UHGV virus genome: UHGV-0244400
From: a virus
Length of the DNA: 40,704 bases
Strand: one strand, 5' to 3'
Made by a program: the position numbers and the translations under genes. Positions 1,688 through 18,454 of this stretch are shown here, piece by piece. The stretch's first letter is position 1; the number at the start of each line of letters is the position of its first letter. The notes under the pieces were generated by a model. It was not told the DNA's origin. It saw only the letters and a list, made by a program, of their open reading frames with translations, and ran no database searches.

Positions 1688-2620
1688 ATGGACAACGACA
1701 AAATTGATCAACACAGCGACGAAATTGAAGTTGAGAGCGAAGAAAAAGAGCGCGGCAAAAAAATAGAAATAGATGAAGATCGACTCCCCTCCCGGGCGAT
1801 GGCAATTCATGAGCATATCCGCCAGGATGGTGAAAAAGAGCTGGAACGCGACGCAATGGCGCTACTGTGGTCAGCCATTGCGGCGGGTCTGTCGATGGGC
1901 GCTTCGCTACTGGCAAAAGGGATATTTCATGTCGAACTGGAAGGCGTGCCGGGCAGCTTCTTGCTGGAGAATCTCGGTTATACCTTTGGTTTTATTATCG
2001 TCATTATGGCCCGCCAGCAATTATTTACCGAAAACACCGTGACTGCGGTACTACCCGTCATGCAAAAACCGACAATGAGCAACGTTGGCTTACTTATGCG
2101 GTTATGGGGCGTCGTGCTGCTGGGTAATATTCTCGGGACAGGTATTGCGGCGTGGGCATTTGAATATATGCCAATCTTCAATGAAGAAACTCGCGATGCA
2201 TTTGTCAAAATCGGCATGGATGTGATGAAGAACACCCCCAGCGAGATGTTTGCCAACGCGATCATTTCCGGCTGGCTGATCGCCACTATGGTATGGATGT
2301 TTCCTGCAGCGGGTGAGGCAAAGATTGTGGTGATTATATTGATGACCTGGCTTATTGCCCTGGGTGACACCACTCACATCGTTGTCGGTTCTGTTGAAAT
2401 CCTCTATCTGGTGTTTAACGGTACGCTGCACTGGAGCGATTTCATCTGGCCCTTCGCACTACCTACTTTAGCGGGGAACATCTGCGGCGGCACCTTTATC
2501 TTCGCGTTAATGAGTCATGCACAGATCCGCAACGACATGAGCAACAAGCGCAAAGCAGAAGCACGCCAAAAAGCAGAACGTGCGGAAAACATTAAGAAAA
2601 ATGATAAAAACCCGGCATAA
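1688..2620 (+). CDS. yfdC: Inner-membrane protein YfdC (formate/nitrite transporter family)
   Basis: 310 aa polytopic membrane protein; matches E. coli YfdC in size and sequence character; conserved synteny mlaA-yfdC-argW. Confidence 0.85.
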   Translation: MDNDKIDQHSDEIEVESEEKERGKKIEIDEDRLPSRAMAIHEHIRQDGEKELERDAMALLWSAIAAGLSMGASLLAKGIFHVELEGVPGSFLLENLGYTFGFIIVIMARQQLFTENTVTAVLPVMQKPTMSNVGLLMRLWGVVLLGNILGTGIAAWAFEYMPIFNEETRDAFVKIGMDVMKNTPSEMFANAIISGWLIATMVWMFPAAGEAKIVVIILMTWLIALGDTTHIVVGSVEILYLVFNGTLHWSDFIWPFALPTLAGNICGGTFIFALMSHAQIRNDMSNKRKAEARQKAERAENIKKNDKNPA

Positions 2621-2695
2621 ATGGCGAGGGTTTAAGCAATCGAGCGGCAGCGTACTTACCCCGCAGTCCATTAGCGGGTATACTCATGCCGCATT

Positions 2696-2770
2696 GTCCT
2701 CTTAGTTAAATGGATATAACGAGCCCCTCCTAAGGGCTAATTGCAGGTTCGATTCCTGCAGGGGACACCA
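2696..2770 (+). tRNA. argW: tRNA-Arg (anticodon CCU), integration target of the prophage
   Basis: 75 nt cloverleaf ending ..GGGGACACCA; anticodon loop CUCCUAA; sequence matches E. coli argW as I recall it. Confidence 0.9.
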
Positions 2771-2931
2771 TTTATCAGTTCGCTCCCATCCGTACCAGTC
2801 CGCAAAATCCCCTGAATATCAAGCTTTCCGTAGATTTACAGTTCGTAATGGTTCGCGTCAGATCGTTGACAGCCGCACTCCATGACGGGTAAAAAGTGGA
2901 TAAAATAATTTTACCCACCGGATTTTTACCC

Positions 2932-4089
2932 ATGCTCACCGTTAAGCAGATTGAAGCAGCAAAGCCGAAAGAAAAACCATACCGCCTACTCGATGGTAAT
3001 GGCCTGTACCTTTATGTCCCTGTATCCGGAAAAAAGGTCTGGCAGCTTCGCTACAAGATTGACGGTAAGGAAAAAATACTGACCGTAGGAAAATATCCGC
3101 TTATGACTTTGCAGGAGGCAAGGGATAAAGCATGGACTGCGAGGAAAGACATCTCGGTTGGCATCGATCCGGTAAAGGCGAAAAAGGCCTCGTCTAACAA
3201 CAATTCCTTTAGTGCGATTTACAAGGAATGGTACGAACACAAGAAGCAAGTCTGGTCAGTAGGGTATGCGACTGAACTTGCAAAAATGTTTGATGACGAC
3301 ATTTTACCCATCATCGGCGGTCTTGAAATTCAGGATATTGAGCCGATGCAACTGCTGGAAGTAATCCGCAGATTTGAAGATCGCGGTGCAATGGAGCGAG
3401 CCAACAAGGCCCGCAGAAGATGCGGCGAGGTTTTCCGTTACGCTATTGTCACCGGAAGGGCTAAATATAACCCGGCACCTGACCTTGCTGACGCCATGAA
3501 GGGATACCGCAAGAAAAACTTCCCGTTTCTTCCTGCAGACCAGATCCCGGCATTTAACAAAGCACTGGCAACATTTTCAGGAAGTATCGTATCGCTCATT
3601 GCGACCAAAGTTTTACGCTACACAGCCCTAAGAACGAAAGAGCTTCGTTCCATGCTATGGAAGAACGTCGATTTTGAAAACAGGATTATCACCATCGACG
3701 CCAGTGTGATGAAGGGTCGCAAAATTCATGTGGTCCCTATGTCAGACCAGGTGGTTGAACTTCTCACTACGCTAAGCTCTATCACCAAACCAGTATCAGA
3801 GTTTGTTTTTGCCGGGCGCAACGATAAGAAGAAGCCAATCTGCGAGAACGCGGTATTGCTTGTGATCAAACAAATCGGCTATGAAGGTCTGGAAAGCGGT
3901 CACGGATTCAGGCATGAATTCAGCACGATTATGAACGAGCACGAATGGCCTGCTGATGCTATTGAAGTGCAACTGGCACATGCCAACGGCGGATCTGTGC
4001 GCGGGATTTACAACCATGCTCAGTATCTCGATAAGCGCAGAGAAATGATGCAGTGGTGGGCGGATTGGCTTGATGAAAAGGTGGAGTGA
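2932..4089 (+). CDS. intS: P4-type tyrosine integrase (IntS-like)
   Basis: 385 aa from the first ATG (track ORF begins at an upstream GTG); N-terminus MLTVKQIEAAKP and C-terminal catalytic region typical of P4-family integrases; adjacent to tRNA. Confidence 0.9.
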   Translation: MLTVKQIEAAKPKEKPYRLLDGNGLYLYVPVSGKKVWQLRYKIDGKEKILTVGKYPLMTLQEARDKAWTARKDISVGIDPVKAKKASSNNNSFSAIYKEWYEHKKQVWSVGYATELAKMFDDDILPIIGGLEIQDIEPMQLLEVIRRFEDRGAMERANKARRRCGEVFRYAIVTGRAKYNPAPDLADAMKGYRKKNFPFLPADQIPAFNKALATFSGSIVSLIATKVLRYTALRTKELRSMLWKNVDFENRIITIDASVMKGRKIHVVPMSDQVVELLTTLSSITKPVSEFVFAGRNDKKKPICENAVLLVIKQIGYEGLESGHGFRHEFSTIMNEHEWPADAIEVQLAHANGGSVRGIYNHAQYLDKRREMMQWWADWLDEKVE

Positions 4090-4251
4090 TCAGCTTTAAC
4101 CACCTTCGAATAGCGCAAAGCTTTGCAATCCAGTGCAAAGCCTTATGTGTCTCATGATGTATCGCTCAATGTGTTTTGTGGTGATATACTTAGAATCTTT
4201 CCTAGCACACTGATTTTCATAGTGACAACTTTAAAGATCATAACTACACAC

Positions 4252-5367
4252 ATGACCAGACAACTTAATGGGATACAGGTTTTGCGTGGTATCGCAGCCT
4301 TAATAGTCGTTTTAGGACATAACAGATCTCTGTATGGGCACATAGATAGTGGTTCTTTTATAGACTATTTGACAATGCAGGCAACGTTTGGTGTTGAGGT
4401 ATTTTTCATAATAAGTGGATTCATAATCACTTATTCCACAAGAAATGCTTCAGGAGATTCACTCTCTAGATTTTATTCATTTCTGACTAAGCGCATATTT
4501 AGAATATATCCAATATATTTTATTGTATTAAGCGTATATATCTCTTTGTTTTGTTATAATTTTAAAGAAGGACATTTCGCTCTTTATGAATTTACCTTAA
4601 GTAACATCATCAAATCTTTCTTACTTATACCGCTTAATCCAAATATAAGCCCTCCATTTTATGGATGGGGGACTCTCATTGTGTCATGGACTCTTGGATA
4701 TGAGATGTATTTCTATATGGTTTTTTCATTTTCCTTATTAATTTCCAAGAAATACAGAAGCTATATATCAATGGCAATATTGATGGCTGTATATTTGTGC
4801 CTATCGGTTTCCTTTGGTAATCCAATAGACTTTAATGCCAATACATTTCATGTTCCTTTCTATGGGTATCATAGTTATCTAGGATTCATTGGAAATCCAA
4901 TAATATTTGACTTTGTACTAGGGATGATAATTGCCGAATGTTATTTGCGATTTCATGATAAACTGTTCGAAAATAAAACAATTGGATATCTATCTATTCC
5001 AGTTATAACTCTATGCTTTATGATGTGGCTTACAGGATTTAAATCAGGCCAAGGTATAACCAATACTGGATTTATTGCTTGCTTGATAGTCTTTTGCGCA
5101 ATATGCATAGAAACATCTACCAAGATTGAGTTTCCAAAGTTCATGGTATTGATGGGTACGTGTTCATACTCTCTTTACCTTATTCATGTTCCGATTAAAA
5201 AAATAATAGAGATATATGGAAAGGATATTCCATTCATTCCGCAAGAACCATCAGTAATGATGTATTTAATGTCCATCTCAGTATCAATAAGCCTGTCTAT
5301 ACCAATGTACTATCTGGTAGAGAAAAAATTTATAGATATAGGACATAATATTTCCAAAAAAATATAA
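4252..5367 (+). CDS. Acyltransferase family 3 integral membrane protein; putative O-antigen (LPS) O-acetyltransferase, serotype-conversion cargo
   Basis: Multi-pass hydrophobic protein with the N-terminal LNGIQVLRGIAALIVVLGHN motif typical of acyltransferase-3 (Oac/OafA-like); strongly AT-rich; located between int and tail-fibre genes; start chosen at first ATG (track ORF starts at TTG 4123). Confidence 0.75.
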   Translation: MTRQLNGIQVLRGIAALIVVLGHNRSLYGHIDSGSFIDYLTMQATFGVEVFFIISGFIITYSTRNASGDSLSRFYSFLTKRIFRIYPIYFIVLSVYISLFCYNFKEGHFALYEFTLSNIIKSFLLIPLNPNISPPFYGWGTLIVSWTLGYEMYFYMVFSFSLLISKKYRSYISMAILMAVYLCLSVSFGNPIDFNANTFHVPFYGYHSYLGFIGNPIIFDFVLGMIIAECYLRFHDKLFENKTIGYLSIPVITLCFMMWLTGFKSGQGITNTGFIACLIVFCAICIETSTKIEFPKFMVLMGTCSYSLYLIHVPIKKIIEIYGKDIPFIPQEPSVMMYLMSISVSISLSIPMYYLVEKKFIDIGHNISKKI

Positions 5368-5415
5368 TGATAGTGCCGCCAAAAAAAGGCGGCATTAGAA
5401 TAAAAAGACTAATTA

Positions 5416-5847
5416 TTATTTACTTGGAGGTTCAGGCCAAGTAACATATGATACAGTAGATGTATCAATTTTCTCAAGCTCATCAAGATAATCAAGCCAC
5501 AAATTGTATTGCGCTAATTCATCCCCTTTCAGCCGACCAATAGCTGCTTTCCCTGGCCATTGTTTACTGTTCATGAAGTTGTTTGCTTCAGCGATGCGTG
5601 ATGCCTTTTCATTTTCAGCAACTGCAATCTGCTGTTCATGGGTGAGTGGTGGCGTTGAAATCCAGACAGGGTGGCCATTTTTATCACTGCCTCTTATGTT
5701 ACCTGGTTGGGGTATTCCGGTATATGTTGCAAATACATCCTCATCAACAACAACTCCGTCAACAGGCCAATCACCTGTAGCCTCATATGAACTTTTCAGA
5801 GACATTGGATAGAAAGCATTACTGGTGGCGCTATAAACATATTTCAT
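5416..5847 (-). CDS. Tail fibre assembly protein (Tfa-like chaperone)
   Basis: 143 aa; position immediately after the tail fibre gene; conserved C-terminal Tfa-like sequence character. Confidence 0.75.
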   Translation of the reverse strand: MKYVYSATSNAFYPMSLKSSYEATGDWPVDGVVVDEDVFATYTGIPQPGNIRGSDKNGHPVWISTPPLTHEQQIAVAENEKASRIAEANNFMNSKQWPGKAAIGRLKGDELAQYNLWLDYLDELEKIDTSTVSYVTWPEPPSK

Positions 5848-5849
5848 TT

Positions 5850-6491
5850 TTAAATCCCTATTGCTATCCAGGAAATATTTGTCGCTGTTCTGTTAAATAC
5901 AGAGCCCGCACTCACTAACCACGCTGAAAGAAAAAAACCTGACTTATCGATGACCTGGCAACCTACAATATTTGCTGCACTGGCATCTGTTCCACCCCCT
6001 GTGACTCCGTAACATTGAGTCGGGAAAGGAATAGGGAAATTAATAATGATTGAACTACTGTTACTGGATGTATGATAGCCATACTGAATAATTTTACCAG
6101 ATGGAAATTTCATCCAACCCGGACCAGAAGCAAACGAAGCCATGTCTGGTATTTGGTTTGTCTTTGTCCCCACATTCCTTTTTGCCGCTTCTCCCAAACC
6201 AAGGTTTTTGAGAGCCGTTTTCACGGTGCCATCCGATTTGATATCGCCAAACGGATTCTTGCGGCTTAACAGCAGCGCACGAAGCGCGGTAAGCAGCTGG
6301 TCGTGCCGCGCCTTCTCAAGACTGGCACCGGATGCCTCAACAACGCTACAAAGTTCTTCCTGCAACATGTCAAAGTAGTCATCATCCAGATCGGTGGCAG
6401 GCGTGCCAGTCTGGGGGTTACCACGGGTAAAACCGTTCTTACCCGCGCCGAACTTATCCTTCTGCGCGGTTTTCGTGTCTATACGATGCAT
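5850..6491 (-). CDS. Tail fibre protein (short, Mu S-like position)
   Basis: 213 aa; last gene of baseplate cluster before tfa; Gly/Ser/Thr-rich C-terminal region. Confidence 0.7.
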
Positions 6492-6494
6492 GGA

Positions 6495-7079
6495 TTACTC
6501 CGGATATTTAAAAATTACGTAGGTATGCGACGGGCAGAGTTTGTTAAGCACACACTCGACAACGGTGTCACCCCAGATACGCAGTGCGGAATCACAGGGA
6601 TCGACACATGTCATCCAGGTGGTGTTGGTGGTGGTTGGCATGTTGACCTGCCAGTAATACCGCCATTCCGGCGCATTCACCGCGTCAGTACAGGCCGATG
6701 AGCAGGTGAACGTGCTTTTGTCGTATCGCGTGATGGTGGCATCTGGTCTGCCCAGGGCAGCAAGCTGTGCAAGATAAAAATCCTCGTTGATGCCGCCCGC
6801 CAGGTTAATCTTCGCATCCAGCCGTTGCTGACGCTGGCGAAGGGTCTGCGTTCCCGCCGGAATACATTCATCCGGCAGACCGCACAGACGCTCCCAGCGG
6901 TTTATCAGTTCAGTGGTGGTGCGCGGATCCAGCTCCCGCATCAGGGCATCCGCACGCTGATGAACACGGGTTAATGACGGTGCCGCACCGGCAATCGCCG
7001 GATCGCTGGCTGACCACGCCGGACCGGGCGGCAACAGTGCCGATAACAGGCGGATGTAATCATCGTTTGTCACGTCCAT
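6495..7079 (-). CDS. Baseplate/tail protein (Mu gp48-like, DUF2313-type)
   Basis: 194 aa; position between baseplate J-like gene and tail fibre as in Mu-like tails. Confidence 0.65.
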
Positions 7080-8128
7080 GAAATCGTCCCCAGTACCGCC
7101 AGTTCGTTTTTCGCAATGGAGATATTGTCCACCGGTGCAAGCAACTGATGGCTGTATTCCCCGTTCGCACCGGAAATCGCCTCACTGATACGCGATACCT
7201 TCAGTTCTCCCTGCGGATAACCATCACGCAGCAGGAACGAACGCAACTCCGCGGTAATGGCAGCCCGTATTTCCGGTGTGTCCGGCGTCACGCGGATATG
7301 AAAATCCACCGTATGTGCCACCGGCCTGAACACATACAAATCAGAGCCTGCCACCGGGGCCAGTGGCTCGATATGCAGCCTTGCCGCCGTTTCCGTTGAT
7401 TCTTCCGGAATGGGATTAATCAGGTCGCTGCTGGCAATCATCACACCGACAGTCCCCGTTCCCATCCAGTGACGGTATGTCCATGCGCGGGTAATGCCGG
7501 GCACTTCTTTAGCCCAGACGACATAGTCCCCGTCAGCCCCGCCCTGAGGTGTCCAGTAATACCGCTCAATGACGCGGGCGCGCCACGTTTCCAGCTCTTC
7601 AGTATCAAATCCACCTGTCAGGGTATCTGCCACGCCGGAAGACGGCAGACCATTCACCGGCGTGACCAGGATTAATGCCGTACCGTCGTCAGCGTTACCG
7701 ACCGCGCCTGCACTTGAGCAGGCGATCGGCACGCGCAGGACACCACCGGAGCTGGTTGCATCGGCAGTTGCCGTGTACTGAACCAGGTCATCGCGCTGAA
7801 TAACACTCCCGGCAGTCACCTTCAGGCCATCGCTGACACCTTCCCAGCGCATATACCCGCTGGCAGCCGTGGCCCCCTTGCGCGGACACCGTTTCATCGC
7901 AGCATGTCGCGCCAGCCAGGACTCATCGCACAGGTCAGGCAGCATATTCATTGCCAGATAATCGATGTACCCGTAAACCGTATGCAGCGCCGCCGCATAC
8001 ACCTTTGCCCGCACGTCTTCATCCATGCGCCGGAGCGTGTCGCTGACGTCCAGCCTGGCGAATAAATCGTTACGGAGCATACTGATATTTTCTGCCAGCG
8101 TCGGGCGCTGAAATTCACTGTCCGCCAT
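7070..8128 (-). CDS. Baseplate J-like protein (Mu gp47-like)
   Basis: 352 aa; size and position in baseplate cluster; overlapping start/stop with neighbours. Confidence 0.8.
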
Positions 8129-8543
8129 GCGTTATCGCACTCCACAGATCATCAAAAGAAATCATTACCGGTCCGTCACGACGCCAGAGGGTGATACTGT
8201 TACCCAGTTCATTAATCCCGGTGCGGCGGATATCCAGATCAATACGGGACACCACGCCGTCATCAATCATCCATTGCAGGCATTCACGGATATACCCCCT
8301 TACCGTCTGCACCAGCTGATTGGTCAGTTTGCTGCGCTGAAGCAGCCACAGTCGGGAGCCGTAACGGTCATTCTGTACCGCAGGCCAGGTATCCCCCCAC
8401 CATCCCATCGGGACGTCGGCGTTGTCATCAGGCTCCGCCCGCCGCCAGGTAAACAGGGAAATCACCACGGCGCGGGTCAGCGGATCCAGCGGTGCGCTGG
8501 CGCAGGTGCGTTTACCGTTCACCGTCAGCCACAGTTCCATCAT
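8115..8543 (-). CDS. Baseplate wedge protein (Mu gp46 / gp25-like)
   Basis: 142 aa; position between baseplate spike and J-like genes. Confidence 0.7.
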   Translation of the reverse strand: MMELWLTVNGKRTCASAPLDPLTRAVVISLFTWRRAEPDDNADVPMGWWGDTWPAVQNDRYGSRLWLLQRSKLTNQLVQTVRGYIRECLQWMIDDGVVSRIDLDIRRTGINELGNSITLWRRDGPVMISFDDLWSAITHGGQ

Positions 8544-9088
8544 GCCTCCATCGCTTTATCAGGTTTGTCGGTGTTACTGCCCTGACCGTTCTCTCTGTGA
8601 CAATGCCCGTTATAGGCAAGCCGCATCGCTGACATGGTGGTGCCGCCGGAGTCGCACAGGTCTTTCACCTGTCCGGTCACTTCAAGGTCCATTTCAAAAC
8701 GTGCTTCAGGTGCATTGCGAAACGTGATCGTTTTACCTGCACCGTCCACTACGATCCCCTCCCGGGTCAGCGTCACGGACTGCCCCTGATCGTCATAGAC
8801 AGCCACCTCACCCGTCTGCAGCCCTTTCAGGCGGTAGCGCCGGTCCGACACCGTAACAACCACCGCATGAGAACGGTCGCCATCCGGAAACAACACCACC
8901 GCTTCCGCACCGCTGTTTGCCCTTGCGGTAAAACCGTAGGGTTCAAGATGTTCAACCCCGGCTTTGGGTTCACCGGCAATCAGGGACACATCCACGGTCT
9001 GACATTTCGTGGCGGCACTGATGCTTTTCACCACGGCCCGCCCAATCAGGCCGAGGAGTTGTCGCTGCATGGCTTCAATCGTCCTCAT
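8540..9088 (-). CDS. Baseplate assembly protein V / central spike (Mu gp45-like)
   Basis: 182 aa; position and size in Mu-like baseplate cluster. Confidence 0.7.
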   Translation of the reverse strand: MRTIEAMQRQLLGLIGRAVVKSISAATKCQTVDVSLIAGEPKAGVEHLEPYGFTARANSGAEAVVLFPDGDRSHAVVVTVSDRRYRLKGLQTGEVAVYDDQGQSVTLTREGIVVDGAGKTITFRNAPEARFEMDLEVTGQVKDLCDSGGTTMSAMRLAYNGHCHRENGQGSNTDKPDKAMEA

Positions 9089-10167
9089 CAGAACGGGTCC
9101 TCCTGTACTCTGGCTTTTTTCTTTTTCCGCGCGCCGGGGGCTTCTGGTTCAGGCAGATAAGCATCAGGTGGGCCGACACGGATTTCCGTCAGGGTGCCGT
9201 TCTGGTCCTGAGTAAACGTGACTTCCGAGACAAGCAGTTCGGTATTGTCGAAACCACAGACCGGATCGAAGACAATCACCCGCTGGTTGGGCTGCCACAG
9301 CGTACCGTTACCCTGTCGCCAGCCCTGCACCACATAGGTGGTTTCATCCGTCCGCGCCGCCCGTTGTCGGGCTTCAAAGTCAGCACGCGCAATACAGCCT
9401 GCCCCCGTGGCCTGCCCTGTCTGCCTGATATACATCGGACGGTAACGGGCAATAAATGCGTCCTCTGTGCGGGCCCGCAGCGCGGTGGTGGTGGCCTCAC
9501 CGAAATCATCGTCGTTTCCGGCACGCTGCCCCGCCACCTGGTAAACTGAAAACCGCTCCCGGATACTCTTCTCCGTATCACAGGAAAGGATGTTTTCCCC
9601 AAGTACCAGCGCGGTATGTGCCCGCGTTGAGCCAATACCGCCAATCACCAGCCTGCCGTGCGGGTCGTCATAAGCCAGCGCCTGCTGCTGACCGAGTATT
9701 TTGTTGATCACCTCGATCACCGTTTCACCGTGATCAGGCTGGACATCAGGAATAACACCCGACGGCGCATCGCTGTTCACCACCTCAATGCCGAAAGGCG
9801 CAGCAAGCGCCTGCGCAATCTGTACCAGCGATCGTCCGTTAAACTGTGTCGGTTCGGCTGCACAGTCAATCAGGTCAGCAGTCAGACTACGTCCGGCAAT
9901 ACCGGTGCTGACCGAACGGGCATCGTAACGAACGGGGGTCGCCTCCACCCAGCCGGTGATCACCAGCTCATCACCAATCAGCACTTCCACTTTTGAACCA
10001 TTTTTAATGCGCGGCTGAAGCGTGGTGATACCCTCATCTCCCGGCCACTGGCGGGTGATCTCCACGCTGAAATCCCGCGCCAGCCGTTCAATACCGGCAC
10101 CGATGCGCACCGATGTCCAGCCATTCCACTCCCGGCCATTTACCCGTAGCGTGACGTTATCGTTCAT
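9088..10167 (-). CDS. Tail protein, P2 gpD / Mu gp44-like (baseplate hub)
   Basis: 359 aa; position after DNA-circularisation gene; translationally coupled (start overlaps upstream stop). Confidence 0.75.
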   Translation of the reverse strand: MNDNVTLRVNGREWNGWTSVRIGAGIERLARDFSVEITRQWPGDEGITTLQPRIKNGSKVEVLIGDELVITGWVEATPVRYDARSVSTGIAGRSLTADLIDCAAEPTQFNGRSLVQIAQALAAPFGIEVVNSDAPSGVIPDVQPDHGETVIEVINKILGQQQALAYDDPHGRLVIGGIGSTRAHTALVLGENILSCDTEKSIRERFSVYQVAGQRAGNDDDFGEATTTALRARTEDAFIARYRPMYIRQTGQATGAGCIARADFEARQRAARTDETTYVVQGWRQGNGTLWQPNQRVIVFDPVCGFDNTELLVSEVTFTQDQNGTLTEIRVGPPDAYLPEPEAPGARKKKKARVQEDPF

Positions 10168-11498
10168 TGCACTGGCACCTTCAGAGGGATCACCGGCACA
10201 AAGCCGGGATGCGTAATGGCATTACGCCGAATAATGTCCGCGTCACGCGCCGCGTTATCAAACCAGGTCGCCGCCAGCACCAGCGCGGGTAAAACCTCAT
10301 CCGGTGTGCGATGAATGATCCGTGCAGACTGCTCAAGGCGCGTGTTGATATCCGCATTCAGATCTGCTTTCACCCGGCGCAGCGCCAGAAACAGCGCATC
10401 ACTGGTTGTACGGGACAACTCCTTATCAATTGCCGTATTCAGTGTGTCGCGAATGTCAGTCAGTTCTTCCCACGTCGGCAGGTCAACCGTGTTTTTCACC
10501 GCCGGTGCATTGTTCAGTGCCGGATGCGTGACGGAAGGCCAACCGGTGCTCTGCGCAGGTGTTGTTGCCTGCCCCACTGTGGCATTCTGCATCACCGCGG
10601 AAGTTGTTGGCGCAGGCAATCGGATGACGGCATACGCCGCTTCGCTGATTGCGGTCGTACGAAGGGTGCTGGCAACCACGTTACGCTGCTGCGTCGCCGT
10701 GGCGGTGGTTTTACTGTCCGTTTTCCAGACGCCGCGCGGTTGCAGATCGCTGCCGAGGCTGACACCGGAAAGCGTTTTGATCATGGTGACCAGGTCGCTG
10801 GCGTTACCATAAAGGCGTTTCCCGGTACGCCACATTTTCTGCACCTGCTCAACGAAATTTTTGCCTGACGATGGCGGCGGCAGAAGTACCGAGATATCAC
10901 CCTGCAACAGCCTGGCGGCATCCGATACGGCAGAATCCACCACTTTCATCGCATCAGAAACATACCCAAGCATTGTGCTGGCATTACCGATAACGTCGTT
11001 CTGCACAAAATCCGCCACGCCATCGATACTGAAACCGCTGAAGCTGTCACTGATGCAGTCATCCAGTGCAGAACAGGATGACATCAGCGTCTGCGCCGTC
11101 GCCACGCCTGATGTGGGGTAAGAGAGATCTCCCGCTTCGACAAACTTCAGGTCAAAGCGGACAATACGCCCTTCACTCTTCGATGTGCTGACCCGAACTT
11201 CCCCGTCAACACAGACTTTCAACTCACCGTATGTCGGGTGGACAAGCGTGCCGGGACCGGGTTTATTCAGCGCGTCAATCAGGCGATCGCGCTGGTCAAA
11301 GCAGTCATCTCCCACCACATAAGCCGTGATGGACGGGCGGAAAGTGACTTTTCCCAGATCTTCGGTATAGGGTTTGTCGCGGTTCGGATATTCGTGTGTT
11401 TCCACACGACGGCCGGTTCCCGCACTTTCTTCTTCAACCTTAAACGGCACACCTCGAAATGACGCATCCTGAAGCCTGTCTTTCCACGTCATATACAC
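10164..11498 (-). CDS. DNA circularisation protein (Mu N / gp43-like) tail component
   Basis: 444 aa; position between tape measure and baseplate hub as in Mu. Confidence 0.75.
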   Translation of the reverse strand: MYMTWKDRLQDASFRGVPFKVEEESAGTGRRVETHEYPNRDKPYTEDLGKVTFRPSITAYVVGDDCFDQRDRLIDALNKPGPGTLVHPTYGELKVCVDGEVRVSTSKSEGRIVRFDLKFVEAGDLSYPTSGVATAQTLMSSCSALDDCISDSFSGFSIDGVADFVQNDVIGNASTMLGYVSDAMKVVDSAVSDAARLLQGDISVLLPPPSSGKNFVEQVQKMWRTGKRLYGNASDLVTMIKTLSGVSLGSDLQPRGVWKTDSKTTATATQQRNVVASTLRTTAISEAAYAVIRLPAPTTSAVMQNATVGQATTPAQSTGWPSVTHPALNNAPAVKNTVDLPTWEELTDIRDTLNTAIDKELSRTTSDALFLALRRVKADLNADINTRLEQSARIIHRTPDEVLPALVLAATWFDNAARDADIIRRNAITHPGFVPVIPLKVPVQ

Positions 11499-11499
11499 T

Positions 11500-11533
11500 C
11501 CGAAAATAAAAAAGCCACCTATTAGAAGGTGGC
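11500..11533 (-). terminator. Rho-independent terminator downstream of the moron gene (hairpin gccacc..ggtggc followed by T-run on minus strand)
   Basis: Inverted repeat plus TTTTTTATTTT on the transcribed (minus) strand immediately 3' of ORF 11554..12084. Confidence 0.5.
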
Positions 11534-11553
11534 CTTGTAATGAATTTTATTAA

Positions 11554-12084
11554 TTAGCGAGTCAGAAACAACGAATCTTTATACTTTTGCTGTTGTTCAT
11601 TTAAATACTTAGCTGTTTCATCGCTGGCAAATGGAAATATTACCGTATTTTTAGGCATGGTAATTTCTTTTTTGTCCAGCGTCAGAGTAAACATAGGAAC
11701 ATACTGAGCAGAGTAACGCACCGCAGAAACGAGCTCTAGTTTAGACTCTTCAATAACACTTAAATTATCCAGGCTAACTTTCTCTTCATCTTTTTTCTTT
11801 GACGCATTTAAAGTTTTTATTACTTTATTTAATTTCTCCTGAAAATCCTCCTTAAAGTTTTCAGGATTGCCGTCGACAACAAGAATCTGTTCACCCTGAT
11901 TATCTGGAAAAATAATCTTTGCACTTATCAATTTATTTTCTTTATAAACATCACCAAGTTTTATGGCTCCTCCAGATAACTGAATAATATGTTCATCTTT
12001 AAAGGAGATGTTGCCAGAGATTATGAGAGATGAAAAAACAGCCGCTGCTCCAAGAATTATACTTGCTGTGATATAGCCTTTCAT
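11554..12084 (-). CDS. Moron: secreted or membrane-anchored protein of unknown function inserted in the tail operon
   Basis: 176 aa; N-terminal hydrophobic signal/anchor (ITASIILGAAAVFSSLIIS), Lys/Glu-rich body; markedly AT-rich versus flanking tail genes; own terminator; interrupts the otherwise Mu-like gene order. Confidence 0.6.
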   Translation of the reverse strand: MKGYITASIILGAAAVFSSLIISGNISFKDEHIIQLSGGAIKLGDVYKENKLISAKIIFPDNQGEQILVVDGNPENFKEDFQEKLNKVIKTLNASKKKDEEKVSLDNLSVIEESKLELVSAVRYSAQYVPMFTLTLDKKEITMPKNTVIFPFASDETAKYLNEQQQKYKDSLFLTR

Positions 12085-12175
12085 TTTTCGCCTATTAACA
12101 TTTTTCTAAATGTGCATTAATTCTATCACTCTATTTATGACTTACAACCAGCAATACCTGTGAGGGGAATCCTGG

Positions 12176-14008
12176 CTACCAAAATCGGGTATAGCCAACA
12201 TCGTGATTTATATCAATGCCACTGGAGCGTGTTTCCGTAACCCGCATACCTGGTGGCATATTTATAAATGATACCTTGATCTCACCATCAACTTTTGGCG
12301 CAGAAGCTTTGTTAATCATGAAGGGATTCGGGCCTGTGGCATCGGAGGCGTTGTTTGACTGAGCCAGATCTACCGCCGGATAAGGTGTGTATCCCCGCGC
12401 CGGTATTCCCGTCCCATAAGCATCATAAGCACCCGCGCCCCACTGCGCAGAGTTAATGGCATCGACCGTGTCACCGGAACTGTCGGTAAACCACTCAATA
12501 ATTGGCTTCAGCTTATCCCACATATCCTGAAACCACTTAACAACCGGTCCCCAGTTATTGATCACCATCCCCAGCGGCGACCAGGCAAAAACCTTCTTCA
12601 GAAGTTCCCAGCCAGCCTCAAAATAAGGACCAATGGTTTCCCAGAGCTTCTTAAAATAAGGTCCGACAACATCCCAGTTAGTGATAATTAATCCCGCAGC
12701 CAGAGCAATCGCCGTCGCAATCATGCCAATCGGCGTCATCGACATAATCCTGCTGACAATACTGATGGCACTGCCCACGCCCATCAATCCCAGTTTCAGA
12801 ATCGCAAGACCGGCAGCAAGCCCGACGACGCCGCGAATAACCCGGGGATTTTCATCCGCAAACTTCGTGAATTTCTCCCCCAACTCCCCCAGCCACTGCG
12901 TGATATTTTTGGCGTCACCAGAAAATGCGCCGCCAATAGCTGCAAGACCGTTAGTTGCGGTCCCCGTCATTGCCTCCCACAGGTTGGACAGCGTACCAAG
13001 CTGAGCCTGAACACGTTTATTCAGGCTGGCCTGTTTATTCATCTTCTGCTGGATCTGATCGTAGCCATCCTTTCCTTTATCGATTAGTGCATTGACCACC
13101 TGAAGGGTTTCGGCATCATCACCAAATATTGCCTTAAGTACGCCTGTTCGCTTAACGTCGGTCAGTTTTCGCAGCTTTGCCAGTTGCCTGAACATGTTAT
13201 CAAGACCGCCAAAACTCCCTTTGCCGTCAGTAAAATCGAGCTGTACCCCGAGTTTCTGGCGGGCCATGATTTTATTGACGTCCCTGATTTTCTTAACGCT
13301 TAATCCGGACTGGATAACTTTTCGCAGGGCGTTACCTGCCGACTCCCCGTTCATCCCCATCTGATCCATCATGACGCTGATGGGGGCAAGGCTCTGTGCA
13401 GCCTGAAGACCGTCCTTGTTCACCATCTTCAGAACAGAGCTGGTTTTAGTGAAGAAGGACAACATGTTGGTATCGTCAACGCCCAGATAAAACGCCTTCT
13501 GGATAGTGTCGAACAGCCCCATCATGTCTTCTGACGCCGTTCCGGTAGCATCCTGCATCTTTGCGGCAAACTCGGCAGCCGCTTCCGGTGTTTTTTTCAG
13601 TTGTACCGCAAGATAAGCTGTCGCTTTACCCACACCGCCAAGAATGTTTTCTGCCGGGATCCCCTGACGCACCAGCATCTGCATCATGTTCTGGAAATCA
13701 GCCGTTGTACCGGGTAGCTGATTACCCAGGCCAATAGCCAGTTTATTGATGTCCTGAAAGCTCTTTCCAACCTCGCCGTTCGCATCCATCATGGCGACTT
13801 TCAGCCCGGTGGCGGCGTTTTCCTGATCGGCATAAGATTTCAGGGAAAGCGTCAGACCCGCTGCCAGTCCGCCACCAAGCGCCAGCCCACCCTGTGACGC
13901 TTCTTCCGCCTGGCGTTTAAATCCCCGGATTTTCTTTTGCATTTTCGACAGCGCGGGAGAAAGCCTGTCGACACCGGTGATCAACGCCTTAAGCTCAAAT
14001 TCCGCCAT
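12176..14008 (-). CDS. Tail tape measure protein
   Basis: 610 aa; Ala/Gly-rich with hydrophobic central segment; position after chaperone genes. Confidence 0.85.
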   Translation of the reverse strand: MAEFELKALITGVDRLSPALSKMQKKIRGFKRQAEEASQGGLALGGGLAAGLTLSLKSYADQENAATGLKVAMMDANGEVGKSFQDINKLAIGLGNQLPGTTADFQNMMQMLVRQGIPAENILGGVGKATAYLAVQLKKTPEAAAEFAAKMQDATGTASEDMMGLFDTIQKAFYLGVDDTNMLSFFTKTSSVLKMVNKDGLQAAQSLAPISVMMDQMGMNGESAGNALRKVIQSGLSVKKIRDVNKIMARQKLGVQLDFTDGKGSFGGLDNMFRQLAKLRKLTDVKRTGVLKAIFGDDAETLQVVNALIDKGKDGYDQIQQKMNKQASLNKRVQAQLGTLSNLWEAMTGTATNGLAAIGGAFSGDAKNITQWLGELGEKFTKFADENPRVIRGVVGLAAGLAILKLGLMGVGSAISIVSRIMSMTPIGMIATAIALAAGLIITNWDVVGPYFKKLWETIGPYFEAGWELLKKVFAWSPLGMVINNWGPVVKWFQDMWDKLKPIIEWFTDSSGDTVDAINSAQWGAGAYDAYGTGIPARGYTPYPAVDLAQSNNASDATGPNPFMINKASAPKVDGEIKVSFINMPPGMRVTETRSSGIDINHDVGYTRFW

Positions 14009-14419
14009 GTGTGCGTTTCTCCTGCTCTATCCTGTTTGCCTGACTGACCAGCAAGGGAATTTCACTGATCGGCATATTCAGCAATTCGAAGGGATTAATG
14101 CGCCAGTAGCTGGCGCAGTCAAAGAAGCGATCAGTGAGGTATTCAGCCGTCAGGCCTGGAGGAAAAAACCAGCCACAAGCCACGCCGCTGCATTCAGGTC
14201 TGCCGGAGACATCTGGTCGACAGAGCTTTGCGGCACTTTCGCCAGCCGCACAATGTATTTCGATACCACATGTGCCAGAAGTCTGACGGACTCATCCTGA
14301 TTCATCTGGTAGGGATACCCCAGCTCGCGGACATCTTTCCCGGTGGGCTCATCAAACTCCAGTACGGAGAGTGTCTCGCCATGAGCGGTAATCGGTTTCT
14401 TTAACTCAAGCTCTTTCAT
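13995..14419 (-). CDS. Tail assembly chaperone, putative -1 frameshift-extended form (fusion of 14150..14419 frame with 13995..14183 frame)
   Basis: Slippery heptamer T TTT TTC at about 14162..14168 in the zero frame 4 codons before the stop; the -1 frame stays open for 54 further codons to the tape-measure start. Confidence 0.4.
14150..14419 (-). CDS. Tail assembly chaperone (short form)
   Basis: 89 aa ORF between tube and tape measure; ends just past a UUUUUUC slippery heptamer. Confidence 0.6.
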   Translation of the reverse strand: MKELELKKPITAHGETLSVLEFDEPTGKDVRELGYPYQMNQDESVRLLAHVVSKYIVRLAKVPQSSVDQMSPADLNAAAWLVAGFFLQA

Positions 14420-14775
14420 TACTGGTAATCCCCTTCTTCACCGTGGAACTCAAGATCAACCGTGCCTTCTTCGGCATTATGGTTCGCTTCTCCGTGCAGC
14501 CAGGCGGACGACAATACATAGACCTGACCGTTCGCCAGCTCGGCAGTGATAGTCATCTCATCAGACGAGGTGATTTTGCTCACCGGAAAATTCTTCGGCA
14601 CCTTGAAGGTCCCTTTGACATAAGGCGCACGGTGAGTTTCCTTGCGGTCCACTGAACCGTCCAGGCCGATGATGTCATCATTGACCGTCCTGTTCATGGG
14701 CACCTCAATGCCGCCGGTCAGCGATAGCTGCTGACCGTCAATTTTGAAATAACAGGTTCCCCCGATACGGGCCAT
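14419..14775 (-). CDS. Tail tube protein (contractile tail)
   Basis: 118 aa; directly downstream of sheath gene with overlapping stop/start. Confidence 0.8.
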   Translation of the reverse strand: MARIGGTCYFKIDGQQLSLTGGIEVPMNRTVNDDIIGLDGSVDRKETHRAPYVKGTFKVPKNFPVSKITSSDEMTITAELANGQVYVLSSAWLHGEANHNAEEGTVDLEFHGEEGDYQ

Positions 14776-16271: not shown

Positions 16272-16425
16272 CGGTGTTCACCTTTTTATTCACGCGCCGG
16301 ATATCACCCGCTGCTTCACGGCGCAGCCAGTAGTTGTTCTCGTCAACATTTCGCCCTTCGGCGGGCAAAAGGTCGCCGCGGGCAGGATCAGGAACTGACC
16401 GCCCTTTAACAGGTTTGACAAACAT
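16255..16425 (-). CDS. Small hypothetical protein (56 aa) between tail-terminator-like gene and sheath
   Basis: ATG preceded by GAGGA 8 nt after upstream stop; overlaps sheath start by 17 nt; below the ORF-track length cut-off. Confidence 0.3.
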   Translation of the reverse strand: MFVKPVKGRSVPDPARGDLLPAEGRNVDENNYWLRREAAGDIRRVNKKVNTDDDKL

Positions 16426-16433
16426 GAGGATCC

Positions 16434-16994
16434 TCAGGAAGGAAGGGTTATTTCGGTGTGATGTTCGATATCGCCGTCAGGCCCGTTACCGGGCTCGAGA
16501 TAATCAACATCAATCGCCAGCGTTTGCAGTTCATCCAGACTGTTCAGATCATCCTGCTGGCGGGTATCGTCTTCAGTCAGCTCGCTGATGACCGAAAAAT
16601 CGAACTGATAAATCAGCTCATGACGATTCAGATCCAGCAGCGTGCCGCCGTCATAGGTAATCGGGTTACCGCACGCCTCCGGGTTCCAGCCCAGCAGAGC
16701 CTTAAAGAGCATCTGCCGGACATCGTCCACCACATCATACGAGGCAAACTGACCGCGCTCATCACGCCCGTTACTCAGTATGACAACCACGGAGAAACCC
16801 TCTTTCAGCTCCTGCCAGTAGTCGGTCTGGCTTTTATTTTCTCCCGGAGAATCATCACCCGGCACCACATACGCCGCCGGGAGTCTCAGCTTTCCGACCT
16901 CCGGCAGATTTTTGAACTGTGCCGCGCCTGCCACCCGGTTTTCAAAATACGGGCAGCGGGCACGCAGCGCAGCAATAACAGGCGTCAGTTTCAT
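16434..16994 (-). CDS. Tail completion / sheath terminator-like protein (Mu gp37-like)
   Basis: 186 aa; acidic; position between head-tail joining genes and sheath. Confidence 0.55.
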   Translation of the reverse strand: MKLTPVIAALRARCPYFENRVAGAAQFKNLPEVGKLRLPAAYVVPGDDSPGENKSQTDYWQELKEGFSVVVILSNGRDERGQFASYDVVDDVRQMLFKALLGWNPEACGNPITYDGGTLLDLNRHELIYQFDFSVISELTEDDTRQQDDLNSLDELQTLAIDVDYLEPGNGPDGDIEHHTEITLPS

Positions 16995-18202: not shown

Positions 18203-18204
18203 AC

Positions 18205-18405: not shown

Positions 18406-18426
18406 GATTCTTCACCCGTCAGAACA

Positions 18427-18447
18427 GGGGGCGCGGTTCCGCGCCCC
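18427..18447 (-). other. GC-rich stem-loop (ggggcgcgg..ccgcgcccc) immediately 3' of the major capsid gene
   Basis: Perfect 9-bp inverted repeat with 3-nt loop in the 49-bp gap after the capsid stop; no T-run, so likely mRNA-stabilising/attenuating hairpin rather than a full terminator. Confidence 0.4.
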
Positions 18448-18454
18448 TGAATGA

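What the first reader, a model, noticed from the sequence alone, without database searches (positions are those of the whole stretch)
4090..5415. O-antigen acetylase-like acyltransferase as lysogenic-conversion cargo next to the integrase
Immediately after intS and before the tail fibre genes lies a strongly AT-rich gene for a polytopic family-3 acyltransferase with the characteristic N-terminal RGIAAL..VVLGH motif. Its position (int-proximal, adjacent to the receptor-binding genes) parallels the oac and gtr serotype-conversion modules of Shigella and Salmonella phages and replaces the gtrABC-like genes found at the argW prophage in E. coli K-12. It probably modifies LPS to block reinfection by phages using the same receptor and may change the O-serotype.
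Basis: partly seen in the sequence, partly recalled or inferred. Interest (0 to 1): 0.5.

Follow-up and report, generated by a model that had tools for sequence, protein, structure and literature searches.

The report
Prophage sugar-acetylase gene beside tail fibre
A prophage at the argW tRNA gene of E. coli carries, between its integrase and its tail-fibre genes, an intact membrane acyltransferase that most likely acetylates a cell-surface polysaccharide (probably the LPS O-antigen); this is a familiar kind of phage cargo, here in a rare, uncharacterised version that travels together with the tip of the phage's tail fibre.

Summary
Window 4252-5367 (+) encodes a 371-aa family-3 (AT3, PF01757) membrane acyltransferase. 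It has 32% GC, against 50% for the window. It lies between intS (argW side) and the convergent tail-fibre-assembly and tail-fibre genes.

All AT3 hallmark motifs are present. An AlphaFold model (pLDDT 95) has 10 membrane helices and matches only the acetyl-CoA-dependent transmembrane acetyltransferase HGSNAT. dN/dS is about 0.1.

The prophage is a chimera. Its integrase is 99% identical to that of Shigella phage Sf6. Its virion genes are 97% identical to those of the serotype-converting phage SfII. The gene sits where Sf6 has oac, SfII has oacD and K-12 CPS-53 has gtrABS. It is an orthologue of none of them (22% identity to Oac; no detectable match to OacD).

The new point is a roughly 2-kb cassette of promoter, AT3, tfa and the fibre C-terminus. 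It recurs at 85-99.7% DNA identity in unrelated tail backbones in E. coli, Salmonella Cerro and Enterobacter roggenkampii. It is absent from 5,426 complete E. coli genomes.

O-antigen acetylation that blocks reinfection is the best reading, but it is inferred. ECA, LPS core or capsule are not excluded as targets.

Verdict: a new member of a known kind, of modest interest.

The parts
2696..2770 (+). tRNA-Arg (anticodon CCU; argW), the prophage attachment site. The att core is about 2756-2770.
   Evidence: ARAGORN. Identity to Sf6 begins at 2756, inside the tRNA 3' end. The K-12 argW/CPS-53 annotation agrees. No second copy of the core lies in the window, so attR is beyond 40704.
2932..4089 (+). 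intS, a tyrosine integrase of 385 aa counted from the Met at 2932. The mechanical ORF starts at a GTG at 2896.
   Evidence: Pfam Phage_integrase, Phage_int_M and Arm-DNA-bind_3. It is 381/384 aa identical to the Sf6 integrase. DNA is 96-97% identical to K-12 intS.
4120..4141 (+). Hairpin just after intS, a likely int terminator. It lies in a roughly 60-bp segment (4090-4150) that is conserved in many prophages and marks the left recombination boundary of the cargo slot.
   Evidence: Terminator-like call. Fold of -14.8 kcal/mol, z -3.5. The segment 4090-4150 is conserved in K-12, in 881 E. coli genomes and, at 82%, in BTP1.
4159..6213 (.). Mobile cassette of about 2 kb: promoter region, AT3 gene, hairpin, tfa, and the C-terminal ~131 codons of the tail-fibre gene.
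   Evidence: Blocks of DNA identity to other loci have reproducible ends:
- Salmonella Cerro: 4175-6213, 88.7%.
- Enterobacter roggenkampii: 4159-6175, 84.8%.
- L007 (different integrase): 4029-6238, 99.7%.
- UViG L027: from 4159.

SfII identity resumes at 6141 and K-12 identity ends at 4150.
4182..4190 (+). Putative extended -10 promoter element (TGaTATACT) for the AT3 gene. This is inferred, not shown.
   Evidence: The motif TGnTA(T/C)ACT is conserved in three diverged copies of the cassette, while the sequence further upstream differs (alignment). The simple sigma-70 scan found no -35/-10 pair here. Only one GATC lies upstream, at 4236.
4252..5367 (+). AT3-only membrane O-acyltransferase gene (371 aa, 10 predicted transmembrane helices).
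   Evidence: - **Family:** Pfam PF01757, E 4.8e-30; PHROG 3333, E 6.7e-81.
- **Motifs:** R12-X10-H23, F51-F52-x-x-S55-G56 and R81-x-x-R84. Most of these residues are invariant, and R12, H23 and R84 are at least 90% conserved, in 105 homologues.
- **Structure:** AF2 pLDDT 95.3, pTM 0.93. The only significant PDB fold match is HGSNAT.
- **Selection:** dN/dS 0.09-0.11.
5371..5397 (.). GC-rich hairpin between the convergent AT3 and tfa genes. It is a probable bidirectional transcription stop or insulator.
   Evidence: RNA fold of -17.8 kcal/mol, z -6.5 on the + strand; -14.5 kcal/mol, z -4.6 on the - strand. No canonical U-tract follows, so the consensus scan did not call it.
5416..5847 (-). Tail-fibre assembly protein (tfa, 143 aa), part of the cassette.
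   Evidence: Pfam Caudo_TAP, E 8e-30; PHROG 188. Identity to the tfa that accompanies the same AT3 allele in Cerro, Enterobacter and L027 is 73-80%. Identity to the SfII tfa, and to the tfa paired with the 50%-identical AT3 allele, is only 28%.
5850..6491 (-). Short tail fibre (213 aa). The N-terminal ~105 aa belong to the SfII-like backbone. The C-terminal ~131 aa (Gp53-like_C, the presumed receptor-binding part) belong to the cassette.
   Evidence: Pfam Gp53-like_C over residues 128-212. Residues 1-105 are 94% identical to the fibre of the argW prophage that carries the other AT3 allele. Residues 83-213 are 73-78% identical to the Cerro and Enterobacter fibres.

Best explanation
The gene encodes a stand-alone (AT3-only) inner-membrane O-acyltransferase, carried as lysogenic-conversion cargo by an SfII-like myovirus prophage integrated at argW.

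**Mechanism (from family knowledge).**
- The ten-helix protein forms a pore.
- Cytoplasmic acetyl-CoA enters the pore and is held by the conserved arginines R12, R81 and R84.
- The thioester is presented to H23 near the periplasmic face.
- The acetyl group is transferred to a sugar hydroxyl of a polysaccharide on the outer side of the inner membrane.

**Most likely acceptor.** The LPS O-antigen repeat unit, modified before ligation to lipid A-core.

**Expression.** The gene is probably expressed in the lysogen from its own promoter. It is insulated from int by one hairpin and from the late tail operon by another.

**Effect.** The modified surface glycan would no longer be recognised by phages that carry the linked tail-fibre tip, giving superinfection exclusion. 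The epitope seen by antibodies and by other phages would also change.

**Shown:** gene integrity, family membership, catalytic motifs, fold, purifying selection, position, and physical linkage to the tfa/fibre tip in several phage backbones.

**Inferred:** acetyl as the acyl group, O-antigen as the acceptor, expression in the lysogen, and the exclusion phenotype.
For: **The enzyme is an intact, selected AT3.**
- Full-length AT3 match.
- R/K-X10-H, FFXISG and RXXR motifs are present. These are defined as essential in Oac, OafA and OafB (PMC7448272; PMC9833829).
- The AF2 model is confident, with 10 TMH. Its only significant solved-structure match is the acetyl-CoA-dependent HGSNAT, consistent with the TmAT superfamily (PMC12423673).
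- dN/dS is 0.09-0.11 across copies.

**The position matches known converting phages.**
- The prophage is 97% identical in virion genes to the serotype-converting phages SfII/SfI/SfIV/SfV.
- Its integrase is that of Sf6.
- The gene occupies the slot of Sf6 oac, SfII oacD/gtrII and K-12 gtrABS.

**Prophage-borne relatives at 44-50% identity also lie convergent to a receptor-binding gene.**
- P22-like tailspike at Salmonella argW and in phages SI8 and relatives.
- Lambda-like side fibre.
- Another argW SfII-like prophage, with a different fibre tip.
- An Enterobacter prophage.

**It is closer to O-antigen acetylases than to other AT3 enzymes.**
- OafB 1e-11 and Oac 1e-8, against WecH 2e-3 and OpgC not significant.

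**Precedent.** Sf6 Oac-mediated acetylation blocks Sf6 superinfection (PMC9558356).
Against: - **No direct evidence of substrate or phenotype.**
- **Low identity to characterised enzymes.** Identity to every characterised O-antigen acetylase is 28% or less. AT3 acceptor specificity cannot be read from sequence.
- **Three genera.** The same cassette (AT3 92% identical, fibre tip 73-78%) occurs in E. coli, Salmonella Cerro and Enterobacter roggenkampii. Their O-antigens need not be alike, which would fit a conserved acceptor such as ECA or LPS core.
- **Capsule precedent.** At argW, CUS-3 cargo (neuO) acetylates a capsule.
- **Non-prophage relatives.** A 48%-identical homologue in Serratia lies between lepA and rseC.
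- **ExoZ labels.** Many distant homologues are labelled ExoZ, an exopolysaccharide acetylase.
- **Weak expression signals.** No canonical -35/-10 promoter or Shine-Dalgarno sequence was found.
- **Unknown receptor.** The receptor of this fibre is not known.
Confidence: 0.6

Rival explanations
1. The enzyme is a functional phage-borne AT3 acyltransferase, but its acceptor is a different envelope glycan: enterobacterial common antigen, LPS core, a capsule/K-antigen, or an exopolysaccharide. That glycan, rather than the O-antigen, would be the receptor masked for the linked fibre.
For: - The cassette is shared at 85-99.7% DNA identity among phages of E. coli, Salmonella Cerro and Enterobacter roggenkampii, and the fibre tip is 73-78% identical. 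This suggests a receptor common to three genera.
- AT3-only enzymes are known for ECA (WecH), OPG (OpgC) and PNAG (IcaC) (PMC9558356).
- The argW phage CUS-3 carries a capsule acetylase next to its tailspike (PMC9659370).
- Distant homologues are labelled ExoZ.
- A 48%-identical homologue in Serratia is chromosomal.
Against: - Similarity to WecH and OpgC is marginal or absent, while OafB and Oac align over the full length.
- The closest phage-isolate relatives (45%) sit beside P22-like tailspikes in Salmonella phages. From general knowledge, P22-like tailspikes of Salmonella phages are O-antigen-specific.
- The backbone belongs to the O-antigen-converting Sf phage group.
- From general knowledge, O-antigens are often shared between E. 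coli and Salmonella.
Confidence: 0.25
2. The gene does modify the O-antigen, but its selected role is on the host side: serotype or immune evasion, serum or bile resistance, or protection against unrelated phages. Under this reading, the linkage to the fibre tip is a by-product of adjacency between two recombination boundaries.
For: - In seven metagenomic or MAG contigs the prophage is cut off at window 6643 and followed by other island genes, yet the AT3-tfa-fibre segment stays 99.8% intact. In Cerro it sits in a prophage remnant. Retention after phage decay suggests benefit to the host.
- The cassette ends coincide with conserved sequences (the int terminator and the fibre N-terminus), where homologous recombination is expected anyway.
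Against: - The tfa and fibre tip are retained intact alongside the AT3 gene in those remnants, so retention does not separate the two roles.
- Co-variation of AT3 allele with fibre tip is seen in every case examined.
- The two roles are not mutually exclusive.
Confidence: 0.1
3. The gene is inert: a decaying or unexpressed moron with no present function.
For: No canonical promoter or ribosome-binding site was found. The allele is very rare in E. coli, at 0 of 5,426 complete genomes.
Against: - The ORF is intact and every conserved catalytic residue is present.
- dN/dS is about 0.1 between copies at dS 0.3-0.4.
- An extended -10-like element is conserved in diverged copies.
- There are 255 members in the 90% cluster, across three genera.
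Confidence: 0.03

Closest known systems
Oac of Shigella phage Sf6 (AT3-only O-antigen 2-O-acetylase of rhamnose; serotype conversion and superinfection exclusion)
   Same: - The genomic layout is identical: argW - int - acyltransferase - convergent receptor-binding gene.
- The integrases are 99% identical.
- Both are AT3-only, at 333 and 371 aa.
- They share R-X10-H, FFXISG and RXXR.
   Different: - Only 22% identity (E 3e-8), so it is not an orthologue.
- The Sf6 partner is a tailspike of a P22-like podovirus. Here the partner is a tfa plus short fibre of an SfII-like myovirus.
- The acceptor sugar is unknown.
OacD of Shigella phage SfII (6-O-acetylation of O-antigen GlcNAc)
   Same: - The phage backbone is the same: 97% identity over about 17 kb of virion genes.
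- The slot and orientation are the same: immediately after tfa and convergent to it.
   Different: - No detectable sequence similarity by BLASTP or phmmer.
- SfII additionally carries gtrA-gtrB-gtrII and integrates with a different integrase. According to PMC3630932, that site is thrW.
GtrC-BTP1 / OafB (AT3-SGNH O-antigen rhamnose acetylase of Salmonella prophage BTP1)
   Same: - It is the best-scoring characterised relative: 27.5% identity over the AT3 domain, phmmer 1e-11.
- It also lies between int and the tailspike.
   Different: OafB has an 11th helix and a periplasmic SGNH domain (640 aa). The window protein ends after helix 10.
gtrABS-like yfdG-yfdH-yfdI of E. coli K-12 cryptic prophage CPS-53
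   Same: The attachment site, integrase and slot between the int terminator and tfa are the same.
   Different: The chemistry is different: bactoprenol-linked glucosylation by three proteins, against acyl transfer by one AT3 protein. There is no sequence relationship.
NeuO of E. coli K1 prophage CUS-3
   Same: It is prophage cargo at argW that O-acetylates the phage's own receptor polysaccharide and protects against phage (PMC9659370).
   Different: - The acceptor is the K1 polysialic acid capsule.
- From general knowledge, NeuO is a soluble hexapeptide-repeat acetyltransferase, not an AT3 membrane protein.
- It is phase-variable through a heptanucleotide repeat. No comparable repeat was noticed on reading this gene's sequence, but none was specifically searched for.
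WecH (YiaH), the E. coli ECA O-acetyltransferase
   Same: It is an AT3-only enzyme of similar size that acts on a periplasmic or surface glycan shared by Enterobacterales (PMC9558356).
   Different: Only the N-terminal ~70 residues align (31% identity, E 0.004). WecH is a chromosomal housekeeping gene, not phage cargo.

Membership tests
Acyltransferase-3 (AT3, PF01757) / TmAT superfamily | Sequence match to the family model above the curated threshold, over the whole domain | tested here: met
   PF01757: 105.2 bits against a cut-off of 31; residues 6-353 cover model positions 2-325 of 326.
Acyltransferase-3 (AT3, PF01757) / TmAT superfamily | R/K-X10-H motif in TMH1 (essential Arg and His) | tested here: met
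   R12 and H23 are separated by 10 residues. Both are at least 90% conserved in 105 homologues. The motif is defined in PMC7448272.
Acyltransferase-3 (AT3, PF01757) / TmAT superfamily | FFXISG motif in TMH2 and RXXR motif at TMH3 | tested here: met
   F51, F52, S55, G56 and R81 are invariant and R84 is at least 90% conserved. The motifs are defined in PMC7448272 and PMC9833829.
Acyltransferase-3 (AT3, PF01757) / TmAT superfamily | Ten-transmembrane-helix core fold shared with HGSNAT | tested here: met
   The AF2 model (pLDDT 95.3) has ten long helices. The loop charge distribution is compatible with N-in/C-in topology. In Foldseek, only the HGSNAT chains reach probability 1.00, and only two of them reach E 1e-3 or better, with TM 0.45.
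Acyltransferase-3 (AT3, PF01757) / TmAT superfamily | Acyl-CoA-dependent transfer to an extracytoplasmic acceptor | not testable with these tools
   Requires biochemistry. It is inferred from the conserved pore residues.
AT3-SGNH fused acetyltransferases (OafA, OafB, OatA) | An 11th helix plus a C-terminal periplasmic SGNH domain | tested here: not met
   The protein is 371 aa and ends 11 residues after helix 10. There is no second Pfam domain. It is therefore an AT3-only protein.
Oac / Oac1b / OacB-D orthologue groups of Shigella flexneri | Close sequence relationship (oac1b is 85% identical to Oac at the protein level) | tested here: not met
   22% identity to Sf6 Oac. No significant similarity to SfII OacD. 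OacB and OacC were not compared directly. The reference value comes from PMC3630932.
Oac / Oac1b / OacB-D orthologue groups of Shigella flexneri | Acetylation of a defined sugar of the S. flexneri O-antigen backbone | not testable with these tools
   The host O-antigen type is not in the window and no chemistry is available.
Prophage lysogenic-conversion (O-antigen modification) module | Location at the prophage end, between the integrase/att site and the receptor-binding gene, transcribed opposite to the tail genes | tested here: met
   The order is argW-intS-AT3(+) then tfa(-)/fibre(-). The same layout is seen in Sf6, BTP1, SI8, Salmonella argW prophage L022 and SfII.
Prophage lysogenic-conversion (O-antigen modification) module | Expression in the lysogen and a change of O-antigen, serotype or phage adsorption | not testable with these tools
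   Indirect support only: a conserved extended -10-like element, flanking hairpins and purifying selection.
gtrABC glucosylation cluster | GtrA flippase, GtrB bactoprenol glucosyltransferase and a serotype-specific GtrC | tested here: not met
   The AT3 gene is the only gene-sized ORF between intS and tfa. K-12 yfdGHI have no counterpart: identity stops at 4150.
SfII/SfV-like serotype-converting myoviruses (the prophage as a whole) | Shared virion gene set with the Sf phages | tested here: met
   Window 6141-11516 and 12182-24075 are 97% identical to SfII. SfI, SfIV and SfV are similar. The integrase, the early region and the cargo differ.

The most novel reading that the evidence does not exclude
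The roughly 2-kb unit of promoter, AT3, tfa and fibre tip is a self-contained, horizontally mobile 'recognise-and-mask' cassette. It moves between unrelated tail machines and between genera.

The same cassette serves phages of E. coli, Salmonella Cerro and Enterobacter roggenkampii. Its acceptor and receptor may therefore be a glycan common to these hosts, such as enterobacterial common antigen or a conserved LPS core or backbone motif, rather than a strain-specific O-antigen. That would make it the first phage-encoded AT3 modification of such a conserved receptor.

A weaker, memory-based variant concerns the Salmonella serovars that carry this subfamily: Cerro, Carrau, Beaudesert, Montevideo, Infantis and Braenderup. 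All of them have O:14 or O:6,14 factors, so the subfamily might underlie a classical phage-conversion epitope.
Probability: 0.2. Interest if true: 0.6.

Novelty: new member of a known kind. Interest (0 to 1): 0.35.

Why it matters
Phage-borne glycan acetylases change serotype, vaccine epitopes and phage susceptibility. For that reason they are tracked in Shigella and Salmonella.

This one is an uncharacterised AT3 lineage. It is 28% identical or less to every characterised enzyme compared here. It is rare in E. coli but spread across three genera.

It is physically coupled to a particular tail-fibre tip. If the coupling is functional, the cassette offers two things:
- a compact, testable example of how a phage carries both the key to a receptor and the means to hide it;
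- a handle for predicting receptor and modification pairs from sequence.

If the acceptor proves to be a conserved glycan rather than an O-antigen, the range of known phage-driven envelope modification would widen. Otherwise it is one more member of a well-understood class.

Tried and rejected
**Searches that returned little or nothing**
- NCBIfam gave no family for the protein.
- PDB sequence search gave no hit at E <= 1.
- PADLOC gave no defence-system match for the AT3 protein.
- Megablast and blastn of 4090-5415 against 5,426 complete E. coli genomes matched only the first ~60-75 bp, the int-terminator segment. Megablast against 50,697 phage records matched nothing. No annotated near-identical copy could therefore be consulted.

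**Readings considered and rejected**
- A longer TTG-initiated ORF from 4123. Homologues and the database protein start at the Met at 4252.
- Orthology to SfII OacD, expected from the shared backbone and slot. There is no similarity.
- Orthology to WecH or OpgC. Similarity is marginal or absent.
- A Dam/OxyR-type phase-variation switch, as in Salmonella gtr operons. Only one GATC lies upstream.
- A canonical sigma-70 promoter or intrinsic terminator for the gene. The consensus scan found none. Only a conserved extended -10-like element and a tail-less hairpin are proposed.

**Not resolved**
- attR was searched for with the argW core and was not found. The prophage's right end lies outside the window.
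- I tried to verify from the literature that the Salmonella serovars carrying relatives share phage-determined O:14 factors. Only the Montevideo and Bareilly formulae (6,7,14) and the meaning of underlined factors could be confirmed. The idea stays a lead.
Full report
**1. Observation**

The interval 4090-5415 is the space between the stop of intS (4089) and the stop of a convergent tail-fibre-assembly gene (5416). It holds one gene-sized ORF (4123-5367). The biologically sensible start is the ATG at 4252, which gives 371 aa. Homologues have this length, and an identical protein is on record as 'acyltransferase family protein [Escherichia coli]' (P0001).

- **Family:** it matches Pfam Acyl_transf_3 end to end (E 4.8e-30) and PHROG 3333 'O-acetyltransferase' (E 6.7e-81). 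NCBIfam, PDB sequences and PADLOC give nothing.
- **Composition:** GC is 0.322 (GC3 0.293). For comparison, intS is 0.478, the baseplate genes are 0.57-0.58 and the whole window is 0.498.
- **Left flank:** mlaA, yfdC and tRNA-Arg(CCU), that is, argW. This flank is 98.9% identical to E. coli chromosomes.

**2. The protein**

In an alignment of 105 homologues, the following are invariant: F51, F52, S55, G56, R81, P87, W146, E151, F154, Y155, G224, G302, Y309 and E357. R12, H23, R84 and H312 are at least 90% conserved.

These residues make up the R/K-X10-H (R12...H23), FFXISG and RXXR (R81...R84) motifs. Those motifs define AT3 enzymes and are essential in Oac, OafA and OafB (PMC7448272; PMC9833829).

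AlphaFold2 gives a confident model (pLDDT 95.3, pTM 0.93) with ten long helices and no extra domain. The distribution of loop charges is compatible with an N-in/C-in topology. Against the PDB, only chains of human HGSNAT reach probability 1.00, and two of them reach E 1e-3 or better (E 7e-4, TM 0.45). HGSNAT is the acetyl-CoA-dependent lysosomal transmembrane acetyltransferase. This is the relationship now described as the TmAT superfamily (PMC12423673).

The protein is therefore an AT3-only enzyme, not an AT3-SGNH fusion.

Between diverged copies (dS 0.30-0.49), dN/dS is 0.075-0.11. The gene is under purifying selection and is not a relic.

**3. The prophage**

- **Virion genes:** window 6141-11516 and 12182-24075 are 97% identical to Shigella phage SfII, and similarly close to SfI, SfIV and SfV.
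- **Integrase:** it is 381/384 aa identical to that of the podovirus Sf6. Sf6 integrates at argW (PMC3630932).
- **Early region:** it is lambdoid, with cI, cII, O-like, DnaB-like, NinB/G/I and Q genes, and it differs from SfII.
- **Right end:** attR lies beyond the window.

The element is thus a chimera of two lineages of Shigella serotype-converting phages, resident in E. coli.

**4. The slot**

The same position holds modification cargo in several related elements:

| Element | Layout |
|---|---|
| Sf6 | argW-int-oac, then the convergent tailspike |
| SfII | fibre-tfa, then convergent oacD, an IS, gtrII-gtrB-gtrA and int |
| K-12 CPS-53 | argW-intS-yfdG-yfdH-yfdI ... yfdK(tfa)-yfdL |
| BTP1 | int-gtrA-gtrC(OafB), then the convergent tailspike |

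K-12 identity to the window ends at 4150, just after a conserved hairpin at 4120-4141 that looks like the int terminator. SfII identity begins at 6141, inside the fibre gene.

**5. It is not an orthologue of the known enzymes**

| Characterised enzyme | Similarity to the window protein |
|---|---|
| Sf6 Oac | 22% identity, full length, E 3e-8 |
| AT3 domain of BTP1 GtrC/OafB | 27.5% identity |
| WecH | only ~70 N-terminal residues align |
| OpgC | not significant |
| SfII OacD | not significant |

The best phage-record relatives are P22-like Salmonella phages (S.Inf 5-2, SI8, Si3, SF6, SF10) at 45% identity. None of them is characterised for this gene.

**6.

The identical protein occurs in E. 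coli contigs from human-gut metagenomes and MAGs, at argW. In seven of these contigs the prophage is cut off at window 6643 and is followed by unrelated island genes.

The 90%-identity cluster also contains many Salmonella Cerro sequences and Enterobacter roggenkampii sequences. DNA identity to the window runs in blocks with reproducible ends:

| Locus | Window span matched | Identity |
|---|---|---|
| Salmonella Cerro | 4175-6213 | 88.7% |
| Enterobacter roggenkampii | 4159-6175 | 84.8% |
| Metagenomic contig L007, behind a different integrase and a DinI gene next to a Dus-family gene | 4029-6238 | 99.7% |
| IMG/VR contig L027 | from 4159 | 77.9% |

In Cerro and Enterobacter the baseplate proteins show no similarity to those of the window. 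Only three things are shared:
- the AT3 protein (92% aa identity);
- the tfa (73-80%);
- the last 131 residues of the fibre (73-78%).

The converse also holds. Another E. coli argW prophage with the same SfII-like backbone carries a 50%-identical AT3 allele, together with an unrelated tfa (28%) and a different fibre tip. Its fibre N-terminus is 94% identical. That allele is present in 5 of 5,426 complete E. coli genomes. The window's allele is present in none.

Other prophage-borne relatives also sit convergent to a receptor-binding gene, each of a different kind:
- a P22-like tailspike at Salmonella argW (phage SI8);
- a lambda-like side fibre;
- a 664-aa protein with no Pfam match in an Enterobacter prophage.

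Not all relatives are prophage-borne:
- A 48%-identical homologue in Serratia lies between lepA and rseC.
- A truncated 72%-identical homologue lies beside an IS, downstream of proBA.

**7. Expression signals**

- The consensus scan found no -35/-10 promoter for the gene.
- TGnTA(T/C)ACT at 4182-4190 reads as an extended -10. It is conserved in three diverged cassette copies, while the sequence upstream of it is not.
- A single GATC upstream argues against a Dam/OxyR phase switch of the gtr type.
- A strong hairpin at 5371-5397 (-17.8 kcal/mol, z -6.5) separates the convergent AT3 and tfa genes.

These points support autonomous expression but do not prove it.

**8. Mechanism and its rivals**

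The best-supported account has three parts:
- An AT3-only enzyme admits cytoplasmic acetyl-CoA into its pore, using R12/R81/R84 and H23.
- It acetylates a sugar of a polysaccharide at the periplasmic face.
- The polysaccharide is most probably the O-antigen repeat unit. Acetylation changes the epitope and hides the receptor from phages that carry the linked fibre tip, as Sf6 Oac does for Sf6 (PMC9558356).

I put this at 0.6.

The main rival (0.25) keeps the enzymology but changes the acceptor to ECA, core, capsule or EPS. The case for it rests on the cassette's presence in three genera and on the argW precedent of CUS-3 neuO, a capsule acetylase. The case against it rests on three points: greater similarity to OafB and Oac than to WecH or OpgC; the P22-like tailspike partners of the nearest phage relatives; and the Sf-phage backbone.

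A host-benefit-only reading (0.1) and an inert gene (0.03) are less likely.

**9. Verdict**

Its functional claim is still inference.

The gene is a new, uncharacterised member of a well-known class of prophage cargo. The modest added interest lies in two things: its rarity in E. coli, and the clearly delimited AT3-tfa-fibre-tip cassette that moves between tail architectures and genera.

Noticed in passing
window 34088-34993 (+), next to cI-like repressor 33288-34001 (+): A BstA abortive-infection protein lies immediately downstream of the prophage repressor (PHROG 6287, E 6e-133; PADLOC BstA, E 1.3e-105). It is a second, unrelated anti-phage cargo of the same prophage.
   Followed up: partly
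window 11517-12181 (ORF 11554-12084, -): An AT-rich insertion (GC ~0.33-0.39), relative to SfII, lies between the DNA-circulation and tape-measure genes. It encodes a 176-aa protein with a hydrophobic N-terminus (PHROG 5485, unknown function; no Pfam or PADLOC hit). The related argW prophage L018 has a different gene (tRNA_anti-like, opposite strand) at the same spot, so this is a second moron hot-spot.
   Followed up: partly
window 26551-26706 (-): tRNA-Thr(UGU) and tRNA-Asn(GUU) genes lie inside the prophage, between the lysis genes and the Q antiterminator region.
   Followed up: no
window 2756-40704: The prophage is a three-way chimera. The integrase is Sf6-type (99% aa). The virion genes are SfII-type (97% DNA). 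The lambdoid early region (N, cI, cII, O-like, DnaB-like, NinB/G/I, Q, RecT/YqaJ) is not shared with SfII. attR is not in the window.
   Followed up: partly
L001-L006 and L008 (E. coli gut MAG/metagenome contigs), matching window 2600-6643: In these contigs the prophage is cut off inside the gp48-like gene (window 6643). It is followed by an rve_3 fragment, AlpA and an Ag43-type autotransporter island. Even so, int-AT3-tfa-fibre stays 99.8% identical. The cassette survives prophage decay.
   Followed up: partly
window 4090-4150: A ~60-bp segment after intS, containing the hairpin at 4120-4141, is conserved in K-12, in 881 of 5,426 E. coli genomes and, at 82%, downstream of int in Salmonella phage BTP1. 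It looks like a shared boundary sequence at which different cargo modules are swapped.
   Followed up: partly
protein clusters (relatives of window 4252-5367): The Salmonella serovars named for this AT3 subfamily are Cerro (>=90% identity), Carrau and Beaudesert (50%), and Montevideo, Infantis and Braenderup (44%). As far as I recall, these are all serovars whose formulae contain O:14 or O:6,14, and they have mannose-rich O-antigens. Only Montevideo's formula (6,7,14) was confirmed, in PMC12203563. A link to the classical phage-determined factor O:14 is an unverified lead.
   Followed up: partly
L030/L031 (protein P0002, 72% identical, 335 aa): The nearest non-cluster relative is N-terminally shorter. 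It sits beside an IS transposase downstream of proB-proA in an enterobacterial metagenome contig. From memory, proBA-thrW is the integration site of the SfI/II/IV/V/X phages, so this may be a cargo remnant left at that site.
   Followed up: no
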